From NCBI RefSeq assembly GCF_003790525.1, contig NZ_CP033635.1: DNA of 64,000 bases, one strand, 5' to 3'. This stretch comes from Escherichia coli. Its GTDB lineage: Bacteria > Pseudomonadota > Gammaproteobacteria > Enterobacterales > Enterobacteriaceae. Both the position numbers and the translations under genes were made by a program. Below the pieces are notes generated by a model. It made no database searches, was not told the origin of the DNA, and saw nothing but the letters and a program-made list of their open reading frames with translations. This document shows, piece after piece, positions 28,472 through 53,797 of this stretch (positions within the stretch are counted from its first letter, which is position 1; every line of letters starts with the position of its first letter).

Positions 28472-28494
28472 GTGCTGCGTGCAAAATCACTACA

Positions 28495-28590: not shown

Positions 28591-28784
28591 TTTTGCCACC
28601 TTTTATCATTGCCCCTATGTGTATAGTACGGGTTCAGAAAATCCGCAATAATACTCATTCTGAAGATGGATAAGGGCAAGTTGCTGTTAGATGATTTTTT
28701 CTCAAACGGGTGAAAAAACTTGATGCACGTCAAAAAATGACGCATATTTGCGCGCGTTTTATTCATCTGGCTGGACGCCCGTAC

Positions 28785-28958: not shown

Positions 28959-29043
28959 ATCTTACTCACTGGCTTGACGGCACCACGCAGACTTATATCA
29001 TTTGGATGAATCGATAAATTTCACAAGTGGCTAAGGAGAAAGT

Positions 29044-30242: not shown

Positions 30243-30422
30243 GTCTGGCCTCGATAAAATAATGATGATGATGTTATCAATACTATCGAAAACAGCCCGA
30301 AGCAACGGATTCCTCGATGAAATTATTGCGTGTTGCAGAGGGGATGTGACGGCTGCAAACAAAACCAATCCCGTGAGCCTGCTACTATTGATGGATTCAT
30401 GCCAAAAGCACAGGAGAGCACT

Positions 30423-31460: not shown

Positions 31461-31658
31461 AGATACGACGGCGGCATAAAGCCGCCATAAAAATCCAGGC
31501 AAAAATCTTTTTTCCAGCTTTAATTAACTTACCACTTCTCTGTTCTGTAGCTAATAACAATAAAGGTGAGTGGATAATGATTATTCAGCTTCATACGCCA
31601 GGTAAACGACTTCTGCTGTGCTGGCAGAGTTGGAACGAAAACACCTGAAGGAAATAAC

Positions 31659-32324: not shown

Positions 32325-32359
32325 AGTAAATGCCCGGCAAATACCGGGCATCAAGGTAA

Positions 32360-34462: not shown

Positions 34463-34703
34463 GAAAAAAGCCAGGTTAAGAATGGGAAAACGCCGTCATG
34501 GTAATAAAATTGTAAATTTATGGAAAACGAAACGGCACGATACGTTAAGTAATTGAGAGAATTGTAGTCGTAACGGCAAGAAATGCTCCACATTTGAGAA
34601 AATAATGATTACCATTCCCATTTATAACAAGAGCGTAACGATGATTACGCTTAGCGAAGCATTGTGAAGCAGCAAAAATATCGGTTCATCAAAGGGAGTC
34701 GTC

Positions 34704-35765: not shown

Positions 35766-35846
35766 TAGATATGGCGAGGGTGAAAACGGAGAGACTTGCC
35801 TGACTTTTATCACGCCGTATCCGGCACCTTCGTCAGTAATTTGAAT

Positions 35847-35873
35847 TTGCCCGGCACGTAGCCGGGCAATTTT
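35847..35873 (+). terminator. Rho-independent terminator after yncE (ttgcccggc-acgta-gccgggcaa + T4)
   Basis: 9-bp perfect stem followed by TTTT in the yncE-ansP convergent gap. Confidence 0.7.
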
Positions 35874-35877
35874 GCAA

Positions 35878-37377
35878 TTAACTCGCCGTTTCAGGCTTAA
35901 ACACAATTTCCTGTTGTTCTTCATCTTCCTCGACGACTGGCGCAGTGCTGTGAATTTCAGCAACGCGTTTGCGCACACCAAACCAGCCTATAACCAGCAG
36001 AATACCGATAATCGGTAGCGCCGCGATAGTATAAGTCCCGTTCGGGTAATCGAACGCCATCAGCACCAGAACACTCAGTAAAAACAGTAATGTCAGCCAG
36101 GAAGTGAAGGGCGCGCCAGGCAGTTTAAAACTGACATCCGCTGCTTTGCCTTCTTTAATCGCTTTACGCAGGCGCATCTGGCACACGATGATAAACGCCC
36201 ATGAAGCGATGATTCCCAGCGACGCGAAGTTCAACACAATCTCAAATACGCGCGACGGCACCAGATAGTTGAGGAATACGCCGACGACATACACAACCAG
36301 TGTCGCCAGAATCCCGGCATACGGCACATGCTGACGACTCATTTTCGCCATAAAACTCGGTGCGGAACCGCCCATCGCCATTGAGCGCAGAATGCGTCCG
36401 GTGCAGTACAGACCTGAATTCAGGCTGGAGAGGGCAGCGGTCAGCACCACAATGTTCATAATGCTGCCGATATATGGCACACCCAGTTTAGAGAAAAACG
36501 TCACGAACGGACTTTGCCCCGCCTGATACGCGCTCCACGGCAATAGCATAACCAGCAACACCACGGAGCCGACGTAAAACAGGCCAATACGCCAAATCAC
36601 ACTGTTAATCGCTTTAGGCACCATGGTCTGCGGATCTTTACATTCTCCGGCCGCTGTACCCACCATTTCAATAGAGGCAAAAGCAAACACTACGCCCTGA
36701 ATCAACACCAGCGCAGGCAGCAAACCGTGGGGGAAGAAGCCGCCATTATCGGTAATTAAATGAAAGCCAGTGGTGTTGCCATCCAGCGGCTGACCGCTAC
36801 CGAGGAACACTGTACCCACGACCAAAAAGGTCACGATGGCGAGCACTTTAATAAGCGCAAACCAGAACTCCATCTCCGCAAACCATTTCACACCAATCAT
36901 ATTCATGGTGCCAACGATGGTCAGCGCAGCGAGCGCAAAGACCCACTGCGGCACGCCGCCAAACGCACCCCAGTAATGCATATACAGAGCGACGGCGGTG
37001 ATATCGACAATCCCTGTCATCGCCCAGTTGATGAAGTACATCCAGCCTGCAACGTAAGCGGCTTTCTCTCCTAAAAACTCACGGGCATAAGAGACAAAAC
37101 TGCCACTGGAAGGGCGGTGTAGCACCAGCTCACCCAATGCACGCAGAATAAAAAATGAAAACAGGCCGCAGATTAAATAGACCAGTGCCAGTGCTGGCCC
37201 CGCCATTTGCAGTCGGGCTCCTGCACCTAAAAACAAGCCGGTGCCAATCGCGCCGCCAATGGCGATCATCTGAACCTGGCGATTGCCCATCGCTTTGTGA
37301 TACCCCTCTTCGTGGGCATTAAGCCAGCGGCGTTTCGCGGCGTGCTGATCTGAAGTGTCGGTGTCGTGTTTACTCAT
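35878..37377 (-). CDS. ansP: L-asparagine permease (APC family)
   Basis: ORF 35878..37428; start at MSKHDTDTSDQHAAKRRWLN (499 aa), 12-TM amino-acid permease. Confidence 0.92.
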   Translation of the reverse strand: MSKHDTDTSDQHAAKRRWLNAHEEGYHKAMGNRQVQMIAIGGAIGTGLFLGAGARLQMAGPALALVYLICGLFSFFILRALGELVLHRPSSGSFVSYAREFLGEKAAYVAGWMYFINWAMTGIVDITAVALYMHYWGAFGGVPQWVFALAALTIVGTMNMIGVKWFAEMEFWFALIKVLAIVTFLVVGTVFLGSGQPLDGNTTGFHLITDNGGFFPHGLLPALVLIQGVVFAFASIEMVGTAAGECKDPQTMVPKAINSVIWRIGLFYVGSVVLLVMLLPWSAYQAGQSPFVTFFSKLGVPYIGSIMNIVVLTAALSSLNSGLYCTGRILRSMAMGGSAPSFMAKMSRQHVPYAGILATLVVYVVGVFLNYLVPSRVFEIVLNFASLGIIASWAFIIVCQMRLRKAIKEGKAADVSFKLPGAPFTSWLTLLFLLSVLVLMAFDYPNGTYTIAALPIIGILLVIGWFGVRKRVAEIHSTAPVVEEDEEQQEIVFKPETAS

Positions 37378-37643
37378 TGCTCTCCCTGATTGCTTTAATG
37401 AAAAAGTCATATAAGTTGCCATGAACAATGTTTATTCATCCTGGCGATGATAGTTATCACCATTATTCTTTATGGGTATAAAACTATCGGCGCAGCATCC
37501 TACCCGTTATCGATAAACGATGCAAAACATCCCCTTACAATCCTGAAGGGGAATAATACAACTGACGAAAAAATGACAAATCCTTTTGCTGGTTAACCTG
37601 TGTACTGTCCTACACTTAATCTTTAAAAGATTGTGAGGGGCAT

Positions 37644-38261
37644 ATGATTAAGGTGTATGGCGTACCCGGCTGGGGCTCTACAATCAGTGAGCTGATGCTA
37701 ACACTGGCTGATATTCCTTATCAGTTCGTTGATGTCAGTGGTTTTGACCGCGAGGGAACTTCACGCGAGTTATTGAAAACCCTGAACCCGTTGTGTCAGA
37801 TTCCGACACTGGCGCTGGAAAATGACGAGATTATGACGGAGACAGCGGCGATTGCATTGATGGTTCTCGATCGTCGCCCGGACCTTGCGCCACCGCTTGG
37901 GCGCGTCGAACGTCAGCAGTTTCAACAGTTATTGGTCTGGCTGGTTGCTAATGTCTATCCAACATTCACTTTCGCCGATTACCCTGAGCGTTGGGCTCCT
38001 GACGCACCCGAACAGTTAAAGAATAATGTTATTGAATATCGTAAATCGCTTTATATCTGGCTGAATTCACAATTGACCGCTGAACCGTATGTGTTTGGAG
38101 AGCAACTAACGCTGGTGGACTGTTATCTCTGCACCATGCGCACATGGGGACCGGGACACGAATGGTTTCAGGATAATGCCCCGAACATCAATGCGATTGC
38201 TGATGCTGTATGTCAGATACCAAAGCTAAAAGGGATACTAAAGAGGAATGGAATCATTTAA
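37644..38261 (+). CDS. yncG: Glutathione S-transferase homolog YncG
   Basis: 205-aa ORF with GST N/C-domain pattern. Confidence 0.88.
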   Translation: MIKVYGVPGWGSTISELMLTLADIPYQFVDVSGFDREGTSRELLKTLNPLCQIPTLALENDEIMTETAAIALMVLDRRPDLAPPLGRVERQQFQQLLVWLVANVYPTFTFADYPERWAPDAPEQLKNNVIEYRKSLYIWLNSQLTAEPYVFGEQLTLVDCYLCTMRTWGPGHEWFQDNAPNINAIADAVCQIPKLKGILKRNGII

Positions 38262-38853
38262 TTATTTTTCCCATCGATTTCGCCCACTTTCTTTCGCCCG
38301 GTATAACGCAGCGTCGGCATCTGAAATAATTTGTTCAGCCGTTTTTGCGGGAGCAGAACAGGTAATCCCCTGACTAACCGTAACGAATGCATTAACAGCA
38401 GATGCCTGATGCGGGATAGCTGCCAGTTTAAGTTCTTGCTTCACTCTGGCTGCTACCGTCTCTGCTTCCGGCAATGTTGCATTAAAAAGTATGATGACAA
38501 ACTCTTCGCCACCATAACGGACAACAACATCCTCCGACTGGCGAGTTGAACGCTGTAGAGCGTCGGCAACTTGTATTAGACAACGATCCCCAGCAGGATG
38601 CCCGTAAGTGTCGTTGTAACGTTTAAAAAAATCGACATCCAGCATAATAAGAGCAAATGACCCGCCGTTATCTATCGCGTCGTGTAAGATACTGTTCATT
38701 GCACGTCGGTTTGCTATCCCAGTTAAAGGATCACGATGTGCTAATGCATCAAGGCGATTAATTAACTGGTTGTTATAACTGTTTTGTACCCATGCTTCTT
38801 CAAACCAACGTAACAAAATGAGTCGCCCACCATATAGCGCCAGTGAAAAAATA
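38262..38853 (-). pseudogene. Diguanylate cyclase (GGDEF domain, RYGGEEF active site), C-terminal part separated from its N-terminus by IS1
   Basis: Minus-strand frame ...SLALYGGRLILLRWFEEAW...DPLTGIANRRAM...RYGGEEFVIIL...LYRAKESGRNRWEK*; the apparent TTG start in the ORF track lies inside the IS1 inverted repeat. Confidence 0.8.
38846..38853. repeat. IS1 target-site duplication, left copy (AAAAAATA)
   Basis: Same 8-mer directly flanks the other IS1 end at 39622..39629. Confidence 0.7.
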
Positions 38854-38868
38854 GGTAATGACTCCAAC

Positions 38869-39372
38869 TTATTGATAGTGTTTTATGTTCAGATAATGCC
38901 CGATGACTTTGTCATGCAGCTCCACCGATTTTGAGAACGACAGCGACTTCCGTCCCAGCCGTGCCAGGTGCTGCCTCAGATTCAGGTTATGCCGCTCAAT
39001 TCGCTGCGTATATCGCTTGCTGATTACGTGCAGCTTTCCCTTCAGGCGGGATTCATACAGCGGCCAGCCATCCGTCATCCATATCACCACGTCAAAGGGT
39101 GACAGCAGGCTCATAAGACGCCCCAGCGTCGCCATCGTGCGTTCACCGAATACGTGCGCAACAACCGTCTTCCGGAGCCTGTCATACGCGTAAAACAGCC
39201 AGCGCTGGCGCGATTTAGCCCCGACATAGCCCCACTGTTCGTCCATTTCCGCACAGACGATGACGTCACTGCCCGGCTGTATGCGCGAGGTTACCGACTG
39301 CGGCCTGAGTTTTTTAAGTGACGTAAAATCGTGTTGAGGCCAACGCCCATAATGCGGGCTGTTGCCCGGCAT
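38869..39372 (-). CDS. insB: IS1 InsB (transposase catalytic part, expressed by -1 frameshift as InsAB')
   Basis: 167-aa [28 protein letters not shown]... recognised as IS1 InsB. Confidence 0.9.
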
Positions 39373-39566
39373 CCAACGCCATTCATGGCCATATCAATGA
39401 TTTTCTGGTGCGTACCGGGTTGAGAAGCGGTGTAAGTGAACTGCAGTTGCCATGTTTTACGGCAGTGAGAGCAGAGATAGCGCTGATGTCCGGCGGTGCT
39501 TTTGCCGTTACGCACCACCCCGTCAGTAGCTGAACAGGAGGGACAGCTGATAGAAACAGAAGCCAC
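39291..39566 (-). CDS. insA: IS1 InsA (zinc-finger repressor / transposase N-terminal part)
   Basis: 91-aa [46 protein letters not shown]... Confidence 0.9.
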
Positions 39567-39621
39567 TGGAGCACCTCAAAAACACCATCATATACTAAAT
39601 CAGTAAGTTGGCAGCATCACC

Positions 39622-40135
39622 AAAAAATACACCATACAACAGCAAAATGAATATTGATCTGTTGATTAAGCATAAGACTCGCTATTGGAGTGGTGAACCA
39701 TAAGGGAATGACAAATGCGAGCAATGATGGGGTATGGAAATAAAGTGCGATAACGCCACTAAGCATTAATAATACACATAGTGGATAAGCAAACTGCAGC
39801 GTCCAGTACGCAATAAAGTGATAACTACACCATGACCATAGCAGGCTCAGGGCAACTAATAGCACCTGGATAGGTAATGTTTTTTGCCGAGGGATGAGTA
39901 GTAAACCACTGCAAATCAGCAGAATACCCGTTGCAGATATATCAATAGAATGTATAAGGCTTTTTTCATTTAACCAGGGTGGAGTAAGGTCATTAAACAG
40001 AACACGGCGCAGCAAAATTATCAATGCAAAACTGACATTGATAAAAGCAAACCATGGCAAACTAATCGTCATGCCGCGAATAACCATATCGCGGCGGGTT
40101 TTCCATGAGTGATGCGTTTTTCTTCGTTCAGCCAT
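39622..40135 (-). pseudogene. Diguanylate cyclase N-terminal membrane-sensor portion (about 5 TM helices), truncated by IS1
   Basis: Frame MAERRKTHHSW...QINIHFAVVWCIF runs into the IS1 inverted repeat and stops there; in phase with 38262..38853 once IS1 and one 8-bp repeat are removed (about 366 aa). Confidence 0.75.
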
Positions 40136-40142
40136 TTTTTAA

Positions 40143-40167
40143 CCAAAAAAGGGCAGGATACCTGCCC
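40143..40167 (-). terminator. Rho-independent terminator of the alkylsulfatase gene (gggcagg-ata-cctgccc + T6 on minus strand)
   Basis: Perfect 7-bp stem followed by TTTTTT on the coding strand, 15 bp after the stop. Confidence 0.7.
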
Positions 40168-40181
40168 GGTATGCAGTAAAT

Positions 40182-42158
40182 TTATGGTGTCACTATATTG
40201 AACCAAAATTCAAAATTATCCATATAACCTAACAGCTCGTTGAGTTTTTCCGCATTGCCAGTAATTTTGACATCTTCTTTGGCCGTGGCTTCTTTCAGCG
40301 TCTCTTCTTTCAGTACAATTTTGTTCAATACATCACGAGACAGAGTGATAGTGGCATCAGCATCCGAAGCCTCTACACCAGCGGTATGATTGAGAACACC
40401 ATTTTCAAGCTCCACTTTATAGGTGCCGCCATCTTCACCAAAATCGAAATTCAACACGGTTTTGGCATCTGCCGCTTTCTCACCATTAATATGGACGGCA
40501 AGATAATCAAAGAACATCTCCGGCGTCATCGCACGCACGGTGTCTGGGCTGGCAGTATTTGGTGTTGGTAATTTTTGTACGCCATTACGCAATTCCTGTG
40601 CGCCAGTGAGATAGAAATTACGCCACGGCCCAGATTCAGCCTGATAGCCTAACTGCTCAAGCGCATCAGCTTCCAGATTTCTCGCTGCCTGGTTGTTTGG
40701 ATCGGTAAACACCACCTTACTAACAACTTGGGCAACCCAGCGGAAATTACCCTGGTCATAATCCTGTTTGGCTTTCTGTAAAATGGCATCAGCACCGCCC
40801 ATATACTCGACGAATTTTTTTGCGCCTTCTTCTGGCGGCAGTTCATCAAGCGTCGCGGGGTTACCATCAAACCAGCCGAGATAAAGCACGTAAGTTGCTT
40901 TCACGTCATGACTTACCGAACCGTAATAGCCGCGATTCGCCCAGGTATTAGCCAGTGAAGAGGGCAGTTTAAAGTTTGCGGCAATTTCATCACGGGTCAT
41001 CCCTTGATTTGCCATACGCAGAGTTTGATCATTGATGTAACGATACAAATCACGCTGGCTTTTAAGCAGTTTGACCACGTTATCGTTGCCCCAGGTTGGC
41101 CAGTGATGTTGAGCGAGAATAATCTCGGCTTTATCTCCCCATAAATTGAGAGCTTCGTTAATATATTTTGACCACGGCAGCGGTTGGCGAATTTTAGCCC
41201 CACGCAGCGAATAGGTGTTATGAAGGGTGTGCGTGACATCTTCAGCGGTTTCGATCAGTTTCTTTTCTTCAATAAACCACAGCATTTCAGAAGGCGCTTC
41301 AGAGCCTGGCGCCATCAAGAAATCATAGGTCAACCCGTCAATAGTTTCTTTTTGTCCGGTTTTGGTGATGTAGTTAGTAGGAGCAATCAACGTGACCGTT
41401 CCTGCTGAAGTGGTTGTTCCCAGTCCCGCGCCAACCTGGCCTTTAACATCAGGTTTCAATAAGTTGCCATACATATAACTGGCTCGTCGGCTCATCACAT
41501 TGCCAGCCATAATATTTTCGGAAACGGCTTCCTCCAAAAATCCGGCTGGCGCGTAGATTTTAACTTTGCCTGATTTAACGTCAGCTTCATCAATTACGCC
41601 GCGAACACCACCGTAGTGATCGACATGACTGTGTGTGTAGATAACCGCTACTACCGGTTTTTTGTCGCGATTTTTGTAATAGAGATCCATACCCACTTTG
41701 GCTGTTTCTGCTGAAACAAGGGGATCAACGATGGTAATACCCTCTTTGCCTTCAATGATGGTCATATTTGATAGATCGAGATTGCGAATCTGATAGACAC
41801 CTTCAGTTACTTCGAATAACCCGCTGATATTTATCAGTTGCGCCTGACGCCATAAACTTGGATTCACCGTATCAGGGGCTTTATCACCTTCTTTAATAAA
41901 AGCGTATTGTTGTGGATCCCAGATAACATTTCCTTTTTCGCCCTTAATCACGTCTTGAGGGATAGGGGCAACAAAACCTTTATGGGCATCAGTAAAGTCA
42001 GTGTTATCAGAAAACGGCAACTGGTTGTAGAGTAAATTGTTTGCTTGTTGCGTGGCTGCGGTGGCGTCTTTAGGGGCTTCCGCCGCGAGGAGTGGCAAAG
42101 AACTGGTGGTGAATAATCCCGTTATTAGCAGACTTTTAACAATATGATTAAGCTGCAT
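40182..42158 (-). CDS. Secreted metallo-beta-lactamase-fold alkyl/aryl-sulfatase (SdsA1/YjcS family)
   Basis: 658-aa ORF with signal peptide (LPLLAAEAP), MBL zinc motif YTHSHVDHYGG, size and layout typical of SdsA1-like alkylsulfatases. Confidence 0.8.
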   Translation of the reverse strand: MQLNHIVKSLLITGLFTTSSLPLLAAEAPKDATAATQQANNLLYNQLPFSDNTDFTDAHKGFVAPIPQDVIKGEKGNVIWDPQQYAFIKEGDKAPDTVNPSLWRQAQLINISGLFEVTEGVYQIRNLDLSNMTIIEGKEGITIVDPLVSAETAKVGMDLYYKNRDKKPVVAVIYTHSHVDHYGGVRGVIDEADVKSGKVKIYAPAGFLEEAVSENIMAGNVMSRRASYMYGNLLKPDVKGQVGAGLGTTTSAGTVTLIAPTNYITKTGQKETIDGLTYDFLMAPGSEAPSEMLWFIEEKKLIETAEDVTHTLHNTYSLRGAKIRQPLPWSKYINEALNLWGDKAEIILAQHHWPTWGNDNVVKLLKSQRDLYRYINDQTLRMANQGMTRDEIAANFKLPSSLANTWANRGYYGSVSHDVKATYVLYLGWFDGNPATLDELPPEEGAKKFVEYMGGADAILQKAKQDYDQGNFRWVAQVVSKVVFTDPNNQAARNLEADALEQLGYQAESGPWRNFYLTGAQELRNGVQKLPTPNTASPDTVRAMTPEMFFDYLAVHINGEKAADAKTVLNFDFGEDGGTYKVELENGVLNHTAGVEASDADATITLSRDVLNKIVLKEETLKEATAKEDVKITGNAEKLNELLGYMDNFEFWFNIVTP

Positions 42159-42462
42159 CTTAAGCGTCTCCAGAATGGACTTTTATTGGGGGTAATTACG
42201 GATGAAAATTTTTGTGAGGGCAAGAATAACTATAATGGGCGTTAATAAATTGGCAAGCCGGGAACTTGATGTTTTCTTAATGGCATGTTGGCGAAGAATA
42301 TATTCTGCAAGTTGACGTTTTTGTTGGCGCTTTATTTAAAAGGGTGTAGTACAAATCTGTACAAATTCAAGTAGGCATTATTGCCGTAAAAAAGCATCAC
42401 CGGACACATAACATTCACAACGTGTGTTAATTTTACTGACATCTTTCAAAAGGAGCACAATC

Positions 42463-42690
42463 ATGCCGCACATAGACATTAAATGTTTTCCACGTGAACT
42501 GGACGAACAACAAAAAGCAGCACTTGCTGCAGATATTACCGACGTTATTATTCGCCATCTGAACAGTAAAGACAGTTCGATAAGCATTGCTCTACAGCAG
42601 ATTCAACCAGAATCATGGCAAGCTATCTGGGACACCGAAATTGCGCCCCAAATGGAGACGCTGATAAAGAAACCTGGTTACAGCATGTAA
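42463..42690 (+). CDS. pptA: Tautomerase PptA (4-oxalocrotonate tautomerase family)
   Basis: Internal start [33 protein letters not shown] of ORF 42424..42690; catalytic Pro2; AAGGAG RBS. Confidence 0.88.
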
Positions 42691-42693
42691 TGC

Positions 42694-43263
42694 TTAACCT
42701 GCCGTAACACGCTTGCCGCTGGTAACAAACGTGCCAGCGCCTAAATGATGCAACGTATTGAGCTTATCATCATCAAACTGCCAGCGGCCTTCGACAAATA
42801 CCCGTACGTCTGCCGCTGCAGATACCACTTCGCCAAATAGCGAATCGTATTTTTCTTGCGCGGAAGTTGCAGGTAGCAGGCGACACTCCATCCACGCCAG
42901 ACATTTTTCCTCGACCAGCGGCAAACCAAGCACCGGGCCTTTCACAACCGGAATACCATAGCAATTAAACTTATCTTCATCACGCCCCGACACACTTCCC
43001 ACCGCCCACGTCCAGTTAGTTGCTGCAACGCCCGGGATAACGATGCCAAATTTACCGTTACGTTCAATCAACTCCCTGGTCCATGTCGATTTATCTACCA
43101 CAATCGCGACGCGTGGCGGTTCAAACTCCACCGGCATTGACCAGGCTGCAGCCATAATGTTACGCCGCTGGGATTGCTCATCGAAACTGGTGATCATGAC
43201 AGTTGGGCCATGATTTAACAGACGGCTGGCATGGTGTAATTCGACGGGGATGAATCGGCTCAC
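42694..43263 (-). CDS. yddH: Flavin reductase-like protein YddH
   Basis: 189-aa ORF adjacent to pptA. Confidence 0.85.
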   Translation of the reverse strand: MSRFIPVELHHASRLLNHGPTVMITSFDEQSQRRNIMAAAWSMPVEFEPPRVAIVVDKSTWTRELIERNGKFGIVIPGVAATNWTWAVGSVSGRDEDKFNCYGIPVVKGPVLGLPLVEEKCLAWMECRLLPATSAQEKYDSLFGEVVSAAADVRVFVEGRWQFDDDKLNTLHHLGAGTFVTSGKRVTAG

Positions 43264-43437
43264 GGTATCGCCTCGCTAAGAAGGGTGTTTTAAAAGCGTA
43301 GCTCGTAACGCTATAAGTAACGAAATTAACGGGATTGGCGATTTGCGAACGTGATGCATGTCCGCGATCGCACAAAATAGCCGGTGCAGCGTCTATTCCA
43401 GGTTATAAGTTGAGAAAACCACTAAGGGAAACGCCTG

Positions 43438-44283
43438 ATGACGCCCATTCTGAATCATTATTTTGCCCGTATTAACTGGTCGGGAGCTGCTGCGGCCAAT
43501 ATTGATACGCTGCGTGCATTGCACCTGAAACACAATTGCACCATTCCATTTGAAAACCTCGACGTTTTGCTGCCAAGGGAAATACAGCTTGATGATCAAT
43601 CGCTGGAAGAGAAACTGGTGACAGCCCGTCGTGGCGGTTACTGTTTTGAGCAGAATGGCGTGTTTGAGCGTGTGTTACGCGAGCTGGGGTTTAACGTTCG
43701 CAGCTTGTTAGGGCGCGTAGTGTTATCAAATCCGCCAGCATTACCGCCGCGCACCCATCGTTTGTTGTTGGTGGAACTGGAAGGGGAAAAATGGATTGCT
43801 GATGTCGGTTTCGGTGGACAGACGCTAACCGCGCCGATTCGGTTAGTTCCCGAGCTCGTGCAGACCACGCCACACGGAGAGTATCGGTTGTTGCAGGAGG
43901 GTGATGATTGGGTGTTGCAGTTTAATCATCATCAGCACTGGCAGTCGATGTACCGTTTTGATCTCTGCGAGCAGCAACAAAGCGATTATGTGATGGGCAA
44001 TTTCTGGTCGGCGCATTGGCCGCAGTCGCATTTTCGCCATCATTTGCTGATGTGCCGCCATTTACCGGACGGCGGCAAGCTGACACTGACCAATTTTCAT
44101 TTTACCCATTATGAAAATGGGCACGCAGTTGAGCAGCGAAATCTACCAGATGTGGCGTCGTTATATGCCGTGATGCAGGAACAGTTTGGTCTGGGCGTAG
44201 ATGATGCGAAACATGGCTTTACTGTGGATGAGTTAGCGCTGGTGATGGCGGCGTTTGATACGCACCCGGAGGCGGGAAAATAA
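43438..44283 (+). CDS. nhoA: Arylamine N-acetyltransferase / N-hydroxyarylamine O-acetyltransferase
   Basis: 281-aa ORF with NAT catalytic Cys context (RRGGYCFEQN). Confidence 0.92.
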   Translation: MTPILNHYFARINWSGAAAANIDTLRALHLKHNCTIPFENLDVLLPREIQLDDQSLEEKLVTARRGGYCFEQNGVFERVLRELGFNVRSLLGRVVLSNPPALPPRTHRLLLVELEGEKWIADVGFGGQTLTAPIRLVPELVQTTPHGEYRLLQEGDDWVLQFNHHQHWQSMYRFDLCEQQQSDYVMGNFWSAHWPQSHFRHHLLMCRHLPDGGKLTLTNFHFTHYENGHAVEQRNLPDVASLYAVMQEQFGLGVDDAKHGFTVDELALVMAAFDTHPEAGK

Positions 44284-44294
44284 TTTATGTCAGG

Positions 44295-44372
44295 TTGCCG
44301 GATGTGGCGTAAATGCCTAATCCGGCATACATTAGTCCGGTTGTAGGCCTGATAAGCGAAGCGCATCAGGCA
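44295..44372. repeat. BIME: two REP elements in the nhoA-yddE intergenic region
   Basis: TGCCGGATGTGGCGTAAATGCCTAATCCGGCATAC and GTAGGCCTGATAAGCGAAGCGCATCAGGCA, classic REP palindromes. Confidence 0.75.
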
Positions 44373-44378
44373 ACGGTT

Positions 44379-45272
44379 TCAGAGTTTAATTGCCCATTCG
44401 GCATGAAACAAAATCACCGCCGTGCCAGAAATGGTGACTTTCTCCGGTTGGTTATCACGAATTGTCACCGTCACTTCAATCACGCCGTCACGCCCTAATG
44501 CGCGCCCCTGATGGCCTTTAACACGCAACACGTTGCCATCGTGTGGCAATACGTTGTGATGTACTAACTATGCACCCATCGGGCCATTGGCATTGCCAGT
44601 CACCGGATCTTCCACAATACCAATCGCAGGCGAGAACATGCGACCATCGGTTTCGTTTTTGCCTGGGCGGATCTGGAACGGGAAGAAACCATTGCAGCCA
44701 ATCTGTTTGCTGATTGTGGTCAGCGCAGCAAGGTCAGGCGAAAGGGCGTCGATATCCACTTCCGGCTTCAGTGGAATCATCACTTTTGAGTGTCCTGTGG
44801 TAGCCACCTGGATTGGCAAGCCTTGCAAAATATCGTCTTCAGTGAGATGAAGCGCGTTGATAATCGCTGCACGTGTTTCACCTTCCAGCGGTGGTTCAAA
44901 GCCCGGCGTACCTTGCTCCAGCGAAATACGATAATCATCATTTTGCTTTTCGATAGTCACACGATGTTTTCCTGCCAGCGACGTTTGCCAGACGGTGCAA
45001 TTTCCTAAACCTAACACCTTTGCACGTACATAGTGCGCAGCTACTGTCGCGTGACCACAAATCGGAACTTCAACCGTTGGCGTAAAGTAGCGGATGCGCA
45101 CATCGCTGTCGTCGCTGTGCAGCAGAAAAGCAGTTTCCGAATGACCTAACTCGCGGGCGATAAGCTGCATTTGCGCTTCGCTAAGATTATCGGCGGGGAA
45201 AACAACACCGGCAGAATTGCCGCGAAACGGTTGAGAGGTAAAAGCATCGACGTGGTAAACCTGCGGTTTCAT
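44379..45272 (-). pseudogene. yddE: PhzF-family isomerase yddE carrying an in-frame amber (TAG) codon at codon 235; full frame would be 297 codons
   Basis: Frame MKPQVYHVDAF...GNANGPMGA-TAG-LVHHNVLPHDGNVLRVKGHQGRALG...HAEWAIKL*; the only interruption is the TAG at 44568..44570, where I recall W in K-12 YddE. Confidence 0.8.
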
Positions 45273-45351
45273 TAATGTTCTCCTGTGGCTGGAGAACTAT
45301 CATAGCCTGCAAGTGGCCGGAGAGCGAAGAGCTATCCGGCCCGCGAGAGAA

Positions 45352-46032
45352 TTAACGCCGCGAACGCACAATCTGATACCGACGAGTAAAGTACTCAAAC
45401 GGCGCGCTCCAGACATGCACCAGTCGGGTGAACGGGAAGAGCAGAAAGATGGTCATTCCAAGCACCAGATGAACGCGGAATATAAAGGCGACACCATCAA
45501 GATGCGTAGATGCACCGCCCTGGAAAGTGACAATGCTTTGCGCCCAGCCCACCAGCTTCATCATTTCACTGCCGTCCGGATGTTGTGCTGAAAAAGGAAT
45601 GGTGGTTAACCCAAGAATGCACTGAATTAACAAAATGGCGAGGATCAGGATATCCGCACCAGAAGACGTCGCCCTGATACGCGGATTTGTTAAACGACGC
45701 ACCAGTAGCCCCGCACCGCCAATCAGCGTCAATACCCCGCATATTCCGCCGAGGATCATCGCCATCTGCTGTTTTACCGCCACCGGCAGAAACCACGCGT
45801 ACATCCAGTGCGGTGTTAACATGCCGAACAGGTGCCCGAAGAAAATCCCCAAAATGCCAATATGGAACAGATTCGACCATATCACCATCCCGCGTTTATC
45901 GAGCATTTGACTTGAGGAGGCGCGCCAGGTGTACTGCCCGTAGTCATAGCGCAGCCAGCTGCCAAGGAAAAACACCGTCGCACAAATGTACGGGTAGATA
46001 TCGTAAAAAAAGACGTTCAGATACTGAATCAT
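45352..46032 (-). CDS. narV: Nitrate reductase Z gamma subunit (cytochrome b)
   Basis: 226-aa multi-TM ORF, last gene of the narZYWV cluster. Confidence 0.93.
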
Positions 46033-46724
46033 TTCCCACCTCCCGCACTGATGTCGACATATTGCGGCGCGACATCCTGGCTAAAGCGTCGCTGATATTG
46101 ATTAAGCGGCGAGCTGTCACACGCCGTGGCGTTATCTTCAATAAACTTCACCTGTTCCTCTTCCCACACCGCATCCAGTGCCTGGCGGGTGTCATCGCGC
46201 TCCTCACTGTTCACCTGTTTTGTGACACTGTCACTTGAAAGTGTACTTCCTGCCAGTTGCAACAGGGTGTCAAATAACGCGTACCACGGTGCCTCGCGTT
46301 GTTTTAAGCGTCCGCCAAGCAGGGCGAGGATCGGCGCAACGTTGAGCAAGCCTTCTTTCGCCTGATCGTCCGGCAGTACGCTTAAGTACTCCAGATACAG
46401 CGGTAGATAATCGGGCAGTTCTCGACAATCCAACTGCAGGCCGACCTTTTCATACTCCGCCAGCAGGTCCACCATTGCCTGGCCGCGATCGCGGGACTCG
46501 GCATGAACATGTTCGAACAGCAGCAGCGATGTGGTACGTCCACGGTCAAACACTTCGCACCATTCGGCCTGTTTATCCAGCAGCGGCGCGTTAAGCAGGT
46601 TGCGGGTAAAATCCGTAAGCATCGGTGCGTCGCGGCGGATCAACGCCAGCGCGTCCTCCTTACATTCCCACAACAGCTCGTCCGGATACTCCATCAACAG
46701 GCCGATCACTTTGAGGATCTGCAT
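46029..46724 (-). CDS. narW: Nitrate reductase Z assembly chaperone
   Basis: 231-aa ORF (NarJ family) between narY and narV, 4-bp overlaps. Confidence 0.93.
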
Positions 46725-48268
46725 TATTCGCCCTCCGCTTTGTCGCGCACTTCGGTGATGTTGATGGCATCGATACGGCTACTGTTGAACAGGTTGAATT
46801 TGCTGTCCGAGCCGTGGCAACCGTCGCCAAAGGTAAAACCGCAGCCGTTGCGTTCTGCGAAGGCATCGCCCGCCATTTCCCGATGGCTTGTCGGGATGAC
46901 AAAACGGTCTTCATAGTTGGCAATGGCGAGGTAACGATACATCTCTTCGACCTGGGCGACGCTCAGACCTACTTCGTCGATGGCACGAGTATCAGTAACG
47001 CCTTCCACGGTTTGTGAACGCATATAGTGGCGCATCGCCATCATCCGTTTCAGCGCCCGCAGTACCGGACCGGTATCACCGGCACTCAACATATTGGCGA
47101 GATATTGCACCGGAATACGCAGGCTTTCGATGGCGGGCAGCACGCCTTCGCTTTTCGGCAAACCTCCCGCATCAGCGTAGGACTGAATCGGTGACAGCGG
47201 CGGAACGTACCAGACCATCGGCAGGGTGCGGTATTCAGGGTGCAGCGGTAGCGCCAGTTTCCAGTCCATTGCCATTTTGTAGACTGGCGAACGCTGGGCA
47301 GCGTCAATCACGTTTTGTGGAATACCTTGTTTCAGGGCTTCCTCGATCACCGAGGGATCGTGCGGATCGAGGAACACTTCGCACTGGCGTTCATAGAGGT
47401 CAACTTCGCGCTCGGTGCTCGCCGCTTCCTCGATGCGGTCGGCGTCGTAAAGCAGCACGCCCAGATATCGGATGCGACCCACGCAGGTTTCTGAGCACAC
47501 GGTGGGTTGGCCTGACTCAATTCGTGGGTAACAGAAGATGCATTTTTCTGACTTGCCGCTTTTCCAGTTGAAGTAGATTTTTTTGTACGGACAACCGCTA
47601 ATGCACAAACGCCAGCCACGGCATTTATCCTGATCAATCAGCACAATGCCGTCTTCTTCACGTTTGTAGATAGCACCGCTTGGGCAGGTCGCCACGCAGC
47701 TGGGATTGAGGCAGTGTTCGCACAGGCGCGGCAGGTACATCATGAACGTGTTTTCAAACTGCCCGTACATCTCCTTTTGCATGGCCTCGAAGTTGCGGTC
47801 GCGGGCGCGTTTTTCAAATTCGCCGCCCAACAATTCTTCCCAGTTTGGCCCCCAGATCACTTTGTCCATCCGTTTGCCGTCAATCAGTGAACGCGGGCGC
47901 GCAGTAGGAATATGTTTACCTTCTGGCGCGCTATGCAAATGTTCGTAGTCGAAGGTGAAAGGTTCGTAGTAATCATCAATCTGCGGCACCACCGGGTTGG
48001 CGAAGATTTTGGTAATCACGCCCATCTTGCTGCCCAGACGCGGGCGGATCTTGCCATTCACATCACGCACCCAGCCGCCTTGCCACTCTTCCTGATCTTC
48101 CCAGTTTTTCGGATAACCAATGCCCGGTTTGGTTTCGACGTTGTTAAACCATGCGTACTCCATGCCTTCGCGTCCGGTCCAGACGTTTTTACAGGTCACC
48201 GAACAGGTATGGCAGCCGATACATTTATCGAGGTTAAGCACCATGCCGACTTGCGAACGTATTTTCAT
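46724..48268 (-). CDS. narY: Nitrate reductase Z beta subunit (Fe-S)
   Basis: 514-aa ORF with four Cys clusters (CIGCHTCSVTC..., CEHCLNPSCVATCP...). Confidence 0.95.
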   Translation of the reverse strand: MKIRSQVGMVLNLDKCIGCHTCSVTCKNVWTGREGMEYAWFNNVETKPGIGYPKNWEDQEEWQGGWVRDVNGKIRPRLGSKMGVITKIFANPVVPQIDDYYEPFTFDYEHLHSAPEGKHIPTARPRSLIDGKRMDKVIWGPNWEELLGGEFEKRARDRNFEAMQKEMYGQFENTFMMYLPRLCEHCLNPSCVATCPSGAIYKREEDGIVLIDQDKCRGWRLCISGCPYKKIYFNWKSGKSEKCIFCYPRIESGQPTVCSETCVGRIRYLGVLLYDADRIEEAASTEREVDLYERQCEVFLDPHDPSVIEEALKQGIPQNVIDAAQRSPVYKMAMDWKLALPLHPEYRTLPMVWYVPPLSPIQSYADAGGLPKSEGVLPAIESLRIPVQYLANMLSAGDTGPVLRALKRMMAMRHYMRSQTVEGVTDTRAIDEVGLSVAQVEEMYRYLAIANYEDRFVIPTSHREMAGDAFAERNGCGFTFGDGCHGSDSKFNLFNSSRIDAINITEVRDKAEGE

Positions 48269-51200
48269 TTTTTCGCCTCCTGAACCTGATCGCGACCTTC
48301 ATCATCCAGCCAGTTAACGTTCTTCATCTTGCGGATCATGATGAATTCGTCGCGGTTCGAGCCGACGGTGCCGTAGTAGTTAAAGCCCCAGGCCAGCTGC
48401 GCGTAACCGCCAATCATATGCGTTGGTTTCGGACAAACGCGGGTGACCGAGTTATGAATGCCGCCGCGCATGCCAGTTACTTCCGAACCAGGAATATTCA
48501 TAATGCGTTCCTGGGCGTGATACATCATGGTCATACCCGGCGGTACACGTTGGCTGACCACCGCGCGGGCAGTCAGCGCGCCGTTGGCGTTAAACACTTC
48601 CACCCAGTCGTTATCGACAATGGTCAGTTCACGGGCATCGGTTTCGCTGATCCAGACAATTGGTCCACCGCGAGAGAGCGTCAGCATTAGCAGGTTTTCA
48701 CTGTAGGTTGAGTGAATGCCCCATTTCTGGTGCGGCGTCAGGAAGTTAAGTGCTTTTTCCGGGAAGCCGTTTGGCGGTATCTGGCGCATTTCACTGACGC
48801 TACGGGTGTCGATAGGCGGGCGATAAGCCACCAGGCTTTCACCAAAAGCACGCATCCACGGATGATCCTGATAGAGCTGCTGGCGTCCCGACAGCGTGCG
48901 CCACGGAATTAACTCATGAACGTTGGTGTATCCCGCGTTATAGGAAACGTGATCGCTTTCCAGACCGGACCATGTGGGGCTGGAGATAATTTTACGTGGC
49001 TGCGCCTGAATATCGCGAAAGCGAATCTTCTCGTCCTCTTTGTGCAGCGCCAGATGGGTATGTTCGCGTCCGGTGATCTCGCCCAGCGCCTGCCACGCTT
49101 TGACTGCAACATGACCGTTGGTTTCCGGTGCCAGCGCCAGAATCACTTCTGATGCGTCAATGGCGGTGTCAATCAGCGGACGCCCCTGTGCCGGGCCTTC
49201 ACGCTTGGTGTAGTTGAGTTTGCCGAGGAAATCGATTTCATCCTGGGTATTCCACGAAATCCCTTTACCGCCGTTGCCAAGTTTGTCCATCAATGGCCCG
49301 AGCGAGGTAAAGCGTTCATAGGTAGCAGGGTAGTCGCGTTCCACCGCCACAATATTGGGCGCGGTTTTACCCGGGATCAGATCGCATTCGCCTTTGCGCC
49401 AGTCGAGCACTTCACACGGCTGGGAGAGTTCTGCCGGAGAGTCATGTAGCAGTGGTTGTAATACCACGTCGGTTTCTTTGCCAAGATGACCCACGCACAG
49501 TTGCGAAAATGCTTTGGCGATACCTTTGTAGATTTCCCAGTCGCTGCGTGATTCCCACGCCGGATCGACCGCCGCAGAAAGCGGATGAATAAACGGATGC
49601 ATATCCGAGGTGTTCATATCGTCTTTTTCGTACCAGGTGGCGGTGGGCAGAACGATATCGGAGAACAGGCAGGTACTGGACATACGGAAGTCGAGCGTCA
49701 CCAGCAGGTCGAGCTTGCCTTCAATCGCCGCAGTTTGCCACTCGACTTCTTCCGGTTTGATCCCGTCGCTGGCACCGAGTTCCTCGCCCTGAATCCCGCT
49801 TTCGGTCCCCAGCAGATACTTCTGCATATACTCGTGGCCTTTGCCGGAGGAACCAAGCAGGTTAGAACGCCAGACAAACAAATTACGCGGATGATTGCTG
49901 CCGCTATCGGGTTGTTCGCAGGCCATACGTAAATCGCCCGATTTCAACGCCTGGGCGGTGAATTCTGTGGGAGATAATCCGGCCTTGTCGGCTTCAGCTT
50001 TAATCCCGAGCGGATTACGCCCCAACTGCGGCGCAGAAGGTAGCCAGCCCATACGTTCGGCGCGAACGTTGAAATCAATCAGATGACCGCTGTACTTACT
50101 GGCATCGGCAAGCGGTGAAAGTAACTCCTGAGCAGAGACTTTTTCATAGCGCCATTGGCTGGAATGATTGTAGAAAAACGAGGTGCTGTTCATCTGGCGC
50201 GGTGGTCGGTTCCAGTCGAGCGCAAAGGCCAGAGGCAGCCAGCCGGTTTGCGGGCGCAGTTTTTCCTGACCGACATAGTGTGCCCAGCCGCCACCGCTTT
50301 GCCCGACACAACCGCAGAAGATCAGCATGTTGATCATCCCACGGTAGTTCATGTCCATGTGATACCAATGGTTGACGCCAGCACCGAGGATAATCATCGA
50401 ACGCCCATGCGTTTTATGGGCGGTATCGGCAAATTCACGGGCGATGGTTTCAATATACTGGCGCGGCACGCCGGTAATTTGCTCACCCCAGGCTGGGGTG
50501 TACGGTTTGATTTCAGCGTAATCTTTCGCGCTGTTTTCATCTTCCAGCCCGCGATCGAGGCCATAATTCGCCAGTACCAAATCATAAACGCTGACGACCG
50601 GACAGGTGTTGCCATCGGCTAATGTCAGGTTTTTAACGGGCAATTGGCGCACCAGGACCGGATTGTGTTTTACGCGGCGAAAATGCGGATTTTCAATGCC
50701 GCCAAAGTAGGGGAAGGCCACGCCTGCAACGGCATCATGTTGACCGAGCAGAGTTAACGACAATTCGGTTTCCGTACCGGCGGCAATGGATTCCAGATTC
50801 CATTTGCCTTTTTCTCCCCAGCGAAAACCAATCGAACCGTTCGGCACCACCAGTTCACCTGCGGTATTAACTGCCACGGTTTTCCACTGCGGATTATTGC
50901 TTTCGCCCAGTCCATCCACCAGGTCAGATGCGCGGACCATGCGCCCGGGAACGTAGCTGCCGTCGTCGCGAGGTTCCAGCATTACCAGCATCGGCATGTC
51001 GCTGTAGCGGCGGCAGTAGTTGATAAAGTAGTCGCTGGGATTATCGAGATGAAACTCTTTTAAAATGACATGGCCCATTGCCATTGCCAGGGCACTATCA
51101 GTGCCTTGTTTCGGTGCCAGCCACTGGTCGCACAATTTGGCCACTTCAGAGTAGTCAGGGGTAATGGCGATGGTTTTAGTGCCTTTGTAGCGTACTTCGG

Positions 51201-52005
51201 TAAAGAAATGGGCGTCCGGCGTACGTGTCTGCGGTACGTTAGACCCCCAGGCGATGATGTAACTGGAGTTATACCAGTCGGCAGATTCCGGTACGTCGGT
51301 TTGCTCGCCCCAGGTCATCGGCGAGGCGGGCGGCAGGTCGCAATACCAGTCGTAGAAGCTTAAACAGGTGCCACCTAACAGCGACAGATAACGTGTTCCG
51401 GCGGCGTAAGAAACCATCGACATCGCCGGGATCGGCGAGAAACCGGCAACGCGATCCGGGCCGTAAGTTTTGATGGTCCAGACGTTAGCAGCGGCAATCA
51501 GCTGGTTTAGCTCCTGCCAGTTGGAGCGGATAAAGCCGCCGCGTCCACGTACTTGTTTGTAGCTCAGGCACTTTTGCGGATCGTTCATAATTGATGCCCA
51601 CGCCAGTACCGGATCGCTGTGTTGCTTGAGGGCTTCGCGCCACAGTTCAATCAGTCGTTTACGAATGAGCGGGTATTTCAGGCGGTTAGCGCTGTAGAGA
51701 TACCAGGAGTAACTTGCGCCACGCGGGCAGCCGCGAGGTTCGTGATTTGGCAGGTCAGGGCGAGTGCGCGGGTAGTCGGTCTGTTGGATTTCCCAGGTCA
51801 CCAGACCATTTTTAACGTAGATTTTCCAGCTACAGGAGCCTGTACAGTTAACACCGTGGGTGGAACGCACGATTTTGTCGAACTGCCAACGCTGGCGATA
51901 GCTGTCCTCCCAGTCGCGGTTGCTATGCATCACCTGTCCGTGACCATCGGCAAAGGTATCGCCCTTTTGTTTGAAGTAGCGAAAGCGATCCAAAAGTTTA
52001 CTCAT
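48265..52005 (-). CDS. narZ: Nitrate reductase Z alpha subunit (molybdopterin)
   Basis: ORF 48265..52128; start chosen at MSKLLDRFRYFKQKGDTFADGHGQ (1246 aa). Confidence 0.95.
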   Translation of the reverse strand: MSKLLDRFRYFKQKGDTFADGHGQVMHSNRDWEDSYRQRWQFDKIVRSTHGVNCTGSCSWKIYVKNGLVTWEIQQTDYPRTRPDLPNHEPRGCPRGASYSWYLYSANRLKYPLIRKRLIELWREALKQHSDPVLAWASIMNDPQKCLSYKQVRGRGGFIRSNWQELNQLIAAANVWTIKTYGPDRVAGFSPIPAMSMVSYAAGTRYLSLLGGTCLSFYDWYCDLPPASPMTWGEQTDVPESADWYNSSYIIAWGSNVPQTRTPDAHFFTEVRYKGTKTIAITPDYSEVAKLCDQWLAPKQGTDSALAMAMGHVILKEFHLDNPSDYFINYCRRYSDMPMLVMLEPRDDGSYVPGRMVRASDLVDGLGESNNPQWKTVAVNTAGELVVPNGSIGFRWGEKGKWNLESIAAGTETELSLTLLGQHDAVAGVAFPYFGGIENPHFRRVKHNPVLVRQLPVKNLTLADGNTCPVVSVYDLVLANYGLDRGLEDENSAKDYAEIKPYTPAWGEQITGVPRQYIETIAREFADTAHKTHGRSMIILGAGVNHWYHMDMNYRGMINMLIFCGCVGQSGGGWAHYVGQEKLRPQTGWLPLAFALDWNRPPRQMNSTSFFYNHSSQWRYEKVSAQELLSPLADASKYSGHLIDFNVRAERMGWLPSAPQLGRNPLGIKAEADKAGLSPTEFTAQALKSGDLRMACEQPDSGSNHPRNLFVWRSNLLGSSGKGHEYMQKYLLGTESGIQGEELGASDGIKPEEVEWQTAAIEGKLDLLVTLDFRMSSTCLFSDIVLPTATWYEKDDMNTSDMHPFIHPLSAAVDPAWESRSDWEIYKGIAKAFSQLCVGHLGKETDVVLQPLLHDSPAELSQPCEVLDWRKGECDLIPGKTAPNIVAVERDYPATYERFTSLGPLMDKLGNGGKGISWNTQDEIDFLGKLNYTKREGPAQGRPLIDTAIDASEVILALAPETNGHVAVKAWQALGEITGREHTHLALHKEDEKIRFRDIQAQPRKIISSPTWSGLESDHVSYNAGYTNVHELIPWRTLSGRQQLYQDHPWMRAFGESLVAYRPPIDTRSVSEMRQIPPNGFPEKALNFLTPHQKWGIHSTYSENLLMLTLSRGGPIVWISETDARELTIVDNDWVEVFNANGALTARAVVSQRVPPGMTMMYHAQERIMNIPGSEVTGMRGGIHNSVTRVCPKPTHMIGGYAQLAWGFNYYGTVGSNRDEFIMIRKMKNVNWLDDEGRDQVQEAKK

Positions 52006-52099
52006 GACATAACTCCTGCTCCAGGAATGAATTGGGATCTGATGCTTTGTCGGGTGCGACACGGTTGTAGCCTGATAAGACGTGTCAGGCATCGATCTC

Positions 52100-53488
52100 T
52101 TATTTTTGGCTGAACTTCCGCCGACCATAAACCAGCCAGGTCAGCAGCACACAAACGATGTAGAAGATTAAAAACACTTTCATCGCGCCCACCGGAGAGC
52201 CGGTCATATTGAGCGACATGCCAAACGCCTGCGGAATAAAAAAGCCGCCCACTGCGCCAATGGCTGAGATAAAGCCCAGAGCGGCTGCCGTTTCGGTGAC
52301 GGCTTCTCTTTGAGCTTGCTCATCACTACCGCCTTTCATCTTCACCCGATAAATGGTTATCTGGCGAAAGATGACGGCGATCATCTGGAAAGTAGAACCA
52401 CTTCCCAGACCCGCGGTCAGAAACAGCCCCATAAATACGGCGTAAAATGCGATGAAATTACCGGAGCCTGTGCCCGGTAAGGTAAGGAACAGCAGGGCGC
52501 TGAAAATCGCCATAAAAATGAAGTTGATCAACGTCACCCGCACGCCGCCGAATTTATCGGAAATAGCACCACCAAGCGATCGCGCGATGGCACCGATAAA
52601 TGGGCCAAAGAACGCCAGGCGCAGAATATTCACATCCGGGAACTGAGTTTTCGCCAGCATGGCAAAACCCGCAGAAAAACCGATAAACGAACCGAAGGTG
52701 GCAAGGTAAAGCAGGCTCAGCAGCCAGAGATGCAGGCGTTGTAACACTGGCAGCTGGTCGGCAATTGACGCGCGTGAACTGGCGATATCATTCATCCCTG
52801 ACCAGGCGGCGATCGTGGCAATCGCCAGTAATGGCACCCAAATCCATGCGGCATTCGCCAGCGACATTACCGAACCGTCGGCCTGCGGTACGCCATTGAC
52901 GCCGAGAAAGGCAAATACGGGTACAAAAATGACCAGCGGTGCAACCAGCTGCATCACACTTACACCTAAGTTTCCTAATCCGCCATTAATCCCAAGTGCG
53001 CTCCCTTGTTTGGCTTTTGGGAAGAAGAAACTGATATTGCCCATGCTCGAAGCAAAGTTCGCACCTGCAAAACCGCATAGCAAAGCGATAACGATAAATA
53101 TCCCAAAAGGAGTATTCGGATTCTGCACGGCAATTCCGAGCCAGACGCAAGGAATAATCAGGATTGCAGTACTAAAAACCGTCCATCGGCGTCCACCGAA
53201 TATAGGCACCATAAAGGAGTAGGGGACACGCAATAATGCGCCAGAAACGGAGGGTAATGCGGTTAATAAAAAGAGTTGATCGGTAGTGAAATTAAAACCG
53301 ATTTTATTGAGATTAACAGTAACTGCGCTAAATAGCATCCAGACACAGAAGGCAAGAAGTAGACAACTGACTGATATCCAGAGGTTTCTTCGTGCAATAT
53401 GTTTTCCTTTATTTTCCCAGAAGGCCGGATTTTCTGGTTTCCAGTCGCGTAAAAGATAACGACTATTTTTCTCATTTTGCAGTGCCAT
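52100..53488 (-). CDS. narU: Nitrate/nitrite transporter (MFS, NNP family)
   Basis: ORF 52100..53530; start at MALQNEKNSRYLLRDWKPENPAFWENKGK (462 aa). Confidence 0.93.
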   Translation of the reverse strand: MALQNEKNSRYLLRDWKPENPAFWENKGKHIARRNLWISVSCLLLAFCVWMLFSAVTVNLNKIGFNFTTDQLFLLTALPSVSGALLRVPYSFMVPIFGGRRWTVFSTAILIIPCVWLGIAVQNPNTPFGIFIVIALLCGFAGANFASSMGNISFFFPKAKQGSALGINGGLGNLGVSVMQLVAPLVIFVPVFAFLGVNGVPQADGSVMSLANAAWIWVPLLAIATIAAWSGMNDIASSRASIADQLPVLQRLHLWLLSLLYLATFGSFIGFSAGFAMLAKTQFPDVNILRLAFFGPFIGAIARSLGGAISDKFGGVRVTLINFIFMAIFSALLFLTLPGTGSGNFIAFYAVFMGLFLTAGLGSGSTFQMIAVIFRQITIYRVKMKGGSDEQAQREAVTETAAALGFISAIGAVGGFFIPQAFGMSLNMTGSPVGAMKVFLIFYIVCVLLTWLVYGRRKFSQK

Positions 53489-53797
53489 ATTGTTCCTCAC
53501 ATGCACACATTGGTAATGAAAAAAAGACAAAACAGGAGGTAAGGCGCAATAGCCAGTTATTAGAATTAAGGATGAATCAGGTGAAGTGCTGATTAGAAGA
53601 ATAGATAAGAAAGCGTAACTGCGGGGGCAGAATGTGGATTAGACAGACAGATATGTGTTACTAAATGTAACCATTAAACGGGGGTTAATCTTTGAACGTA
53701 TGTCATGTTTCAACCCTTCAGATCGTGAATCTAAAGGGTTGCATATTAACTATATTCTCAACAAGACCAGACACTTATAGAATTAGTGATGATTTAT

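What the first reader, a model, noticed from the sequence alone, without database searches (positions are those of the whole stretch)
44379..45272. yddE (PhzF-family isomerase) carries a single in-frame amber codon
The reading frame is continuous for 297 codons except for a TAG at 44568..44570 where I recall Trp (TGG) in K-12 YddE; downstream sequence still encodes the conserved C-terminus. This is either a very recent nonsense mutation, a sequencing error, or it is read through in a strain with an amber suppressor.
Basis: partly seen in the sequence, partly recalled or inferred. Interest (0 to 1): 0.4.

Follow-up and report, generated by a model that had tools for sequence, protein, structure and literature searches.

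The report
Private nonsense mutation truncating yddE
One E. coli lineage close to strain SMS-3-5 carries a single G-to-A change that turns Trp235 of the non-essential enzyme-like gene yddE into a stop codon, which is an ordinary, very recent gene inactivation.

Summary
yddE lies on the minus strand at 45272..44379 (297 codons plus TAA). Codon 235 is TAG (44570..44568) where K-12 YddE (PDB 1QY9) and SMS-3-5 have Trp/TGG.

The 64-kb window matches E. coli SMS-3-5 except for three changes:
- this C>T change on the plus strand at 44569;
- a fdnG D66E SNP at 59214;
- a 768-bp IS1 insertion at 38854..39621.

None of 5,426 complete RefSeq E. coli genomes has the TAG. About 20 clone-mates match the window over 24 kb apart from its two SNPs and at most one further mismatch.

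The TAG is unlikely to be a one-off base-calling error. The exact 234-aa product and the TAG-bearing DNA occur in Logan assemblies of SRA runs SRR25608274 (a 15.3-kb contig seen in 7 samples) and SRR25608277. Both contigs are 100% identical to the window.

The truncation removes 63 residues, which is 55 of 281 Pfam PhzC-PhzF profile positions. The product is therefore most likely non-functional. The 3' remainder is unchanged, so the event is recent.

Amber suppression cannot be tested because the window holds no tRNA genes, and it is unlikely a priori. This is an ordinary lineage-private pseudogene of low interest.

The parts
44379..45272 (-). yddE (PhzF-family isomerase homologue). The 297-codon frame is interrupted at codon 235.
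   Evidence: Translation. SMS-3-5 annotates yddE / WP_000804420.1 at the matching position. Pfam PF02567 matches at E=3.5e-94 for the restored protein. It is near-identical over all 297 residues to PDB 1QY9 YddE (E=6e-199).
44568..44570 (-). In-frame amber codon TAG replacing TGG (Trp235). The changed base is 44569: T on the plus strand, C in SMS-3-5.
   Evidence: No complete E. coli genome holds the TAG-bearing 61-mer or 31-mer. The TAG is present in Logan contigs L004 and L006.
44571..45272 (-). The 234 codons that remain translatable, giving the truncated YddE product.
   Evidence: ORF 44568..45272 of 234 aa. It covers Pfam profile positions 1-226 of 281. The exact sequence is in the protein collection as P0002, from Logan only.
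44379..44567 (-). Orphaned 3' part of yddE: codons 236-297 plus TAA. It is still in frame and identical to SMS-3-5.
   Evidence: No second difference occurs anywhere in the gene.

Best explanation
A single spontaneous G:C>A:T transition (TGG>TAG on the coding strand) arose recently in one sub-lineage of the SMS-3-5-like E. coli clone. Translation of yddE now ends after residue 234 of 297. The product lacks the last fifth of the PhzC-PhzF domain, so it is most likely misfolded or inactive, and yddE is a young pseudogene. The base change, its derived state and its presence in independent read sets are shown. Loss of function, neutrality and the absence of read-through are inferred. yddE is the last gene on its strand and converges on nhoA, so no polar effect on a downstream gene is expected.
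For:: 44569 is the only difference from SMS-3-5 in 7,051 bp; over the full 64 kb there are only three differences (this SNP, fdnG D66E and an IS1 insertion); ten complete genomes from humans, dogs and river water tie with SMS-3-5 at two mismatches over 24,379 bp, and ten more have three. TGG is therefore the state in the clone and TAG is derived; 0 of 5,426 complete genomes have the TAG-bearing 61-mer or any 28-base word across it, while 4,301 genomes match the flanks; the exact 234-aa product is on record, and Logan contigs from SRR25608274 (15,286 bp, seen in 7 samples) and SRR25608277 are 100% identical to the window including ...GCATAGTTA...; the truncated product covers 226 of 281 Pfam profile positions; alignments to the distant homologues 3EDN and PhzF (1U1V) run to residues 287-289, so the lost segment belongs to the conserved domain; the downstream neighbour nhoA is convergent.
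Against: Function was not measured. The conserved SET motif around Glu46 and the DPVTG segment (221-225) are retained, so residual activity cannot be formally excluded. The rest of the genome is unavailable, so a suppressor tRNA cannot be ruled out. If the SRA runs are the reads from which the window's own assembly was built, they confirm the base call but are not independent isolates. I could not establish their provenance.
Confidence: 0.9

Rival explanations
1. The TAG is a sequencing or assembly error, and the strain really has TGG.
For: The change is one base and is absent from all 5,426 complete RefSeq genomes. The window's source genome is itself not in that collection, because no record matches at 100%.
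Against: The same base is found in Logan short-read assemblies of SRR25608274 (a contig shared by 7 samples) and SRR25608277. It is a substitution. From general knowledge, long-read assembly errors are mostly indels.
Confidence: 0.04
2. The strain carries an amber suppressor tRNA (supE- or supF-like), so full-length YddE is still made by read-through.
For: There is no direct evidence. The 3' 62 codons are intact, but that is equally expected for a very young mutation.
Against: The window has no tRNA gene, so nothing supports it. From general knowledge, suppressors are rare in natural isolates. Also from general knowledge (Poole, Brown and Tate 1995), the codon is followed by T (UAG-U), a context recalled as favouring efficient termination in E. 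coli. The zero divergence downstream is explained by the clone's age alone.
Confidence: 0.03
3. Loss or truncation of YddE was selected, either as adaptive gene loss or because the 234-aa fragment keeps or changes activity.
For: All three private changes in the window alter proteins: a nonsense mutation, a D66E substitution and an IS1 insertion in a GGDEF gene. The allele is shared by at least 8 sequencing runs.
Against: Three events are too few to show selection. Two SNPs in 24 kb is within the range of clone-mates, which carry about 0 to 3 each. No parallel yddE amber allele exists in other lineages. The 8 runs have consecutive accession numbers, so they may be one strain or one study.
Confidence: 0.03

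Closest known systems
E. coli K-12 YddE (PDB 1QY9, 1QYA, 1SDJ), a PhzF-family 'uncharacterized isomerase'
   Same: Same gene. The 297-residue alignment has no gaps and 9 substitutions, with W235 in K-12. The genomic position is also the same, between narZYWV (annotated narI in SMS-3-5) and nhoA.
   Different: In the window, codon 235 is TAG, so only residues 1-234 can be made.
SMS-3-5 yddE (WP_000804420.1) and the same gene in about 24 clone-mate genomes
   Same: Identical DNA over the gene and its flanks. The 1,051-bp query shows a single mismatch to 24 genomes.
   Different: One base, at 44569.
Pseudomonas PhzF (trans-2,3-dihydro-3-hydroxyanthranilate isomerase, PDB 1U1V and others)
   Same: Same Pfam family PF02567. 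The sequence match covers residues 8-287 (E=3e-26).
   Different: E. coli has no phenazine pathway (general knowledge), and the substrate of YddE is unknown. Similarity is at family level only.
Strain-specific nonsense pseudogenes in bacterial clones
   Same: A single in-frame stop in an otherwise intact, conserved gene, with intact orthologues in the nearest relatives.
   Different: Nothing distinguishes this case.

Membership tests
PhzF / PhzC-PhzF family (Pfam PF02567) | Significant match to the family profile above the curated cut-off | tested here: met
   315.9 bits for the Trp-restored protein and 265.2 bits for the 234-aa product, against a cut-off of 27.
PhzF / PhzC-PhzF family (Pfam PF02567) | Complete domain encoded as one uninterrupted polypeptide | tested here: not met
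   the truncated product covers profile positions 1-226 of 281, and the intact protein covers 1-280; there is a stop at codon 235.
PhzF / PhzC-PhzF family (Pfam PF02567) | Conserved acidic catalytic residue (Glu45 in PhzF, from general knowledge) in the N-terminal half | tested here: met
   'GHSETAF' (Glu46) aligns with 'GFNETSF' of 3EDN. The equivalence to PhzF Glu45 is from memory, because that alignment was not printed.
PhzF / PhzC-PhzF family (Pfam PF02567) | Isomerase activity | not testable with these tools
   To my knowledge no substrate is known for YddE. The literature search found nothing on its function.
Recent nonsense pseudogene | In-frame stop at a position that is a sense codon in the closest relatives | tested here: met
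Recent nonsense pseudogene | The mutation is real, meaning it is seen in more than one read set | tested here: met
   Logan assemblies of SRR25608274 (plus 6 further samples with the same contig) and SRR25608277.
Recent nonsense pseudogene | No full-length product is made | not testable with these tools
   This needs protein data or the strain's full tRNA set.
Amber-suppressed gene (supE/supF background) | A tRNA gene with a CUA anticodon in the same genome | not testable with these tools
   the 64-kb window has no tRNA gene, and the rest of the genome is not available.

The most novel reading that the evidence does not exclude
The amber allele may not be a dead end. One possibility is that the lineage carries a natural amber suppressor. 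Another is that the three protein-altering private changes in 64 kb (yddE W235*, fdnG D66E, IS1 in a GGDEF gene) reflect a lineage under relaxed or shifted selection, or with a raised mutation or transposition rate. In that case yddE loss would be part of an adaptive or mutator trajectory.
Probability: 0.05. Interest if true: 0.3.

Novelty: already known. Interest (0 to 1): 0.07.

Why it matters
It matters little. Annotators should mark yddE as a pseudogene (internal stop) in this strain. The TAG, together with the IS1 insertion and fdnG D66E, can serve as a marker for this sub-lineage of the SMS-3-5-like clone. It says nothing new about PhzF-family biology or translation termination, unless a suppressor were found.

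Tried and rejected
- **Planted or artefactual base.** Rejected, because real SRA-run assemblies carry it.
- **TAG shared with other complete genomes.** The 61-mer search gave 0 exact matches among 4,301 aligned genomes, and the 31-mer search gave no hit at all. The limitation is that a genome with TAG plus another SNP within 3-15 bases on both sides would escape both searches.
- **ENA contig L005.** It looked like a third carrier, because its product is exactly 234 aa. It is in fact a contig that ends on the wild-type 'TG', so it was rejected as evidence.
- **Same strain as the Logan contig?** I tried to test whether that contig also carries fdnG D66E. The E66 N-terminal product (P0016) is on record only from NCBI and has no gene position on record. 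The 10-kb flank limit stops short of the site, so this is unresolved.
- **Dcm hotspot.** The wild-type context AACCATG is not CCWGG, so 5-methylcytosine deamination at a Dcm site is not the cause.
- **Literature on YddE function.** Nothing useful was found.
- **Recoding.** Pyrrolysine-type recoding was rejected from general knowledge, because E. coli has no Pyl machinery.
- **Not run.** I did not run structure prediction or large homology searches. PDB and Pfam already settle the family and the extent of the truncation.

Full report
**Observation.** The stretch 44379..45272 encodes a protein on the minus strand. Translation gives MKPQVYHVDAFT...GPMGA*LVHHNVL...AEWAIKL*, which is 297 positions with one internal stop at codon 235 and a terminal TAA. 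The internal stop is TAG, seen as 'cta' at 44568..44570 on the plus strand. Mechanical ORF listing returns a 234-aa ORF (44568..45272), and downstream only a 56-aa TTG-initiated fragment.

**Identity of the gene.** With Trp restored at position 235, the protein matches PDB chains 1QY9, 1SDJ and 1QYA ('uncharacterized isomerase YddE' of E. coli) end to end at E about 1e-199. Those chains have W at position 235. It matches Pfam PF02567 (PhzC-PhzF) over residues 8-290, profile positions 1-280 of 281. A 1,051-bp query around the gene hits 5,399 of 5,426 complete E. coli genomes, annotated 'yddE: PhzF family isomerase'. None matches at 100%, and the best 24 differ by one base.

**Where the window comes from.** The best hit is E. 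coli SMS-3-5 (NC_010498.1). Over a 7,051-bp locus, 44569 is the only difference: T in the window and C in SMS-3-5, which is TAG versus TGG on the coding strand.

I compared all 64 kb with SMS-3-5 record positions 1699408-1763407. Window 1..38853 is 100% identical. Window 39622..64000 has two mismatches: 44569, and 59214 (fdnG GAT>GAA, D66E). Between the two blocks sits a 768-bp IS1 flanked by an 8-bp duplication, AAAAAATA. The window is therefore not SMS-3-5 itself but a very close relative carrying three private changes.

**Is the TAG derived and private?**
- A 61-mer centred on the TAG aligns in 4,301 complete genomes, none of them exactly.
- A 31-mer, which megablast can only hit through an exact 28-base word spanning the TAG, finds nothing.
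- Over the 24,379 bases 39622..64000, ten complete genomes tie with SMS-3-5 at the score for two mismatches, and ten more score one mismatch lower. They come from humans, dogs and river water.
- By my reading of those bit scores, clone-mates carry roughly 0 to 3 SNPs of their own in this stretch. The window's two SNPs are therefore not an unusual load, and no mutator needs to be invoked.

The clone's state is thus TGG, and TAG is a derived singleton among complete genomes.

**Is it a sequencing error?** The exact 234-aa product is on record in the 15-billion-protein collection, from Logan assemblies only. Its encoding contigs are SRR25608274_67 and SRR25608277_348. The first is 15,286 bp, and the same contig was seen in 7 samples. 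The second is 975 bp. The 10,930 bp read from the first contig, and all 975 bp of the second, are 100% identical to the window, and both read ...GGTGCATAGTTAGTA....

A third apparent carrier, ENA contig k141_144179, simply ends at '...GCATG'. That is the wild-type G at the contig's last base, so it is not a carrier.

The TAG is therefore reproducible in at least 8 read sets. I could not establish whether those runs are the window's own strain or sister isolates. The flank limit stopped short of the fdnG site, and the E66 product has no gene position on record.

**Consequence.** The stop removes 63 of 297 residues. The remaining product covers Pfam profile positions 1-226 of 281. Alignments to distant family members (3EDN, and PhzF 1U1V) extend to residues 287-289, so the lost part is conserved domain and not a dispensable tail.

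From general knowledge, the PhzF/DapF fold is two interlocked beta-rich domains, and its C-terminal strands complete the second domain. A fragment lacking them would not be expected to fold. That step is inference, not a test.

The conserved Glu46 (SET) and the DPVTG segment are retained, so residual activity cannot be formally excluded. The 62 codons after the stop are unchanged from SMS-3-5. This fits a very young mutation and needs no selection for read-through. yddE converges on nhoA, so polarity on downstream genes is not an issue.

**Suppression.** The window contains no tRNA gene, so the supE/supF idea cannot be tested here. The base after the codon is T (UAG-U). I recall this as a context that terminates efficiently in E. 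coli, which is general knowledge and was not tested. I give read-through about 3%.

**Cause of the mutation.** It is a G:C>A:T transition, the commonest spontaneous class. The wild-type context AACCATG is not a Dcm site.

**Comparison with what is known, and verdict.** This is yddE, a known gene of the PhzF family whose function in E. coli is unknown. A literature search gave nothing further on that function. Here the gene carries a lineage-private nonsense mutation. Family membership holds at the sequence level, but the intact-domain criterion fails in this strain, so the correct label is 'yddE pseudogene (internal stop)'.

Nothing about it is mechanistically new. Interest is low, at about 0.07. 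The main residual uncertainties are the untested suppressor background and the provenance of the SRA runs.

Noticed in passing
window 38854..39621 (duplication 38846..38853 / 39622..39629): A 768-bp IS1 (insA 39566..39291, insB 39372..38869, minus strand) with an 8-bp target duplication AAAAAATA. It splits a GGDEF-domain gene (SMS-3-5 WP_000236738.1; window 40087..39622 plus 38853..38262). It is absent at this site from SMS-3-5 and from all 5,426 complete E. coli genomes: no record covers 80% or more of the junction query.
   Followed up: partly
window 59214 (fdnG, 59017..62064, + strand): A private T>A change makes fdnG codon 66 GAA (Glu) instead of GAT (Asp). No complete genome has the exact 61-mer. 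An identical 195-aa N-terminal product with E66 exists in NCBI as AYW30475.1 and RLY44390.1. The longest contig is 5.54 Mb, and its lineage is unknown.
   Followed up: partly
window 59602..59604: fdnG has an in-frame TGA at codon 196, identical in SMS-3-5. This is the normal selenocysteine codon of formate dehydrogenase-N, not a defect. A reader with no tools could mistake it for a second nonsense codon.
   Followed up: yes
window about 14867..17515: ydcO (BenE-family transporter) is split by an IS4 element (transposase about 15252..16580). This is inherited, since it is annotated the same way in SMS-3-5 and the window is 100% identical there.
   Followed up: partly
window 44284..44378 (yddE-nhoA intergenic region): This is a palindromic, REP-like sequence (gccggatg...cctgatgcg-type). 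Both Logan contigs that carry the TAG end inside it, at 44343, which is probably an assembly break at a repeat.
   Followed up: no
L005 (ENA ERZ27280762 k141_144179), last base = window 44569: This metagenome contig is 100% identical to the window for 1,535 bp. It ends exactly on the variant position with the wild-type G. It mimics a 234-aa product only because the contig stops there.
   Followed up: yes
window 55498..55785 and neighbouring 54.2-55.1 kb: A leucine-rich-repeat gene fragment is annotated as a pseudogene in SMS-3-5, next to an intact 418-aa LRR gene. It is not found in the K-12 gene order as I recall it. I did not examine it.
   Followed up: no
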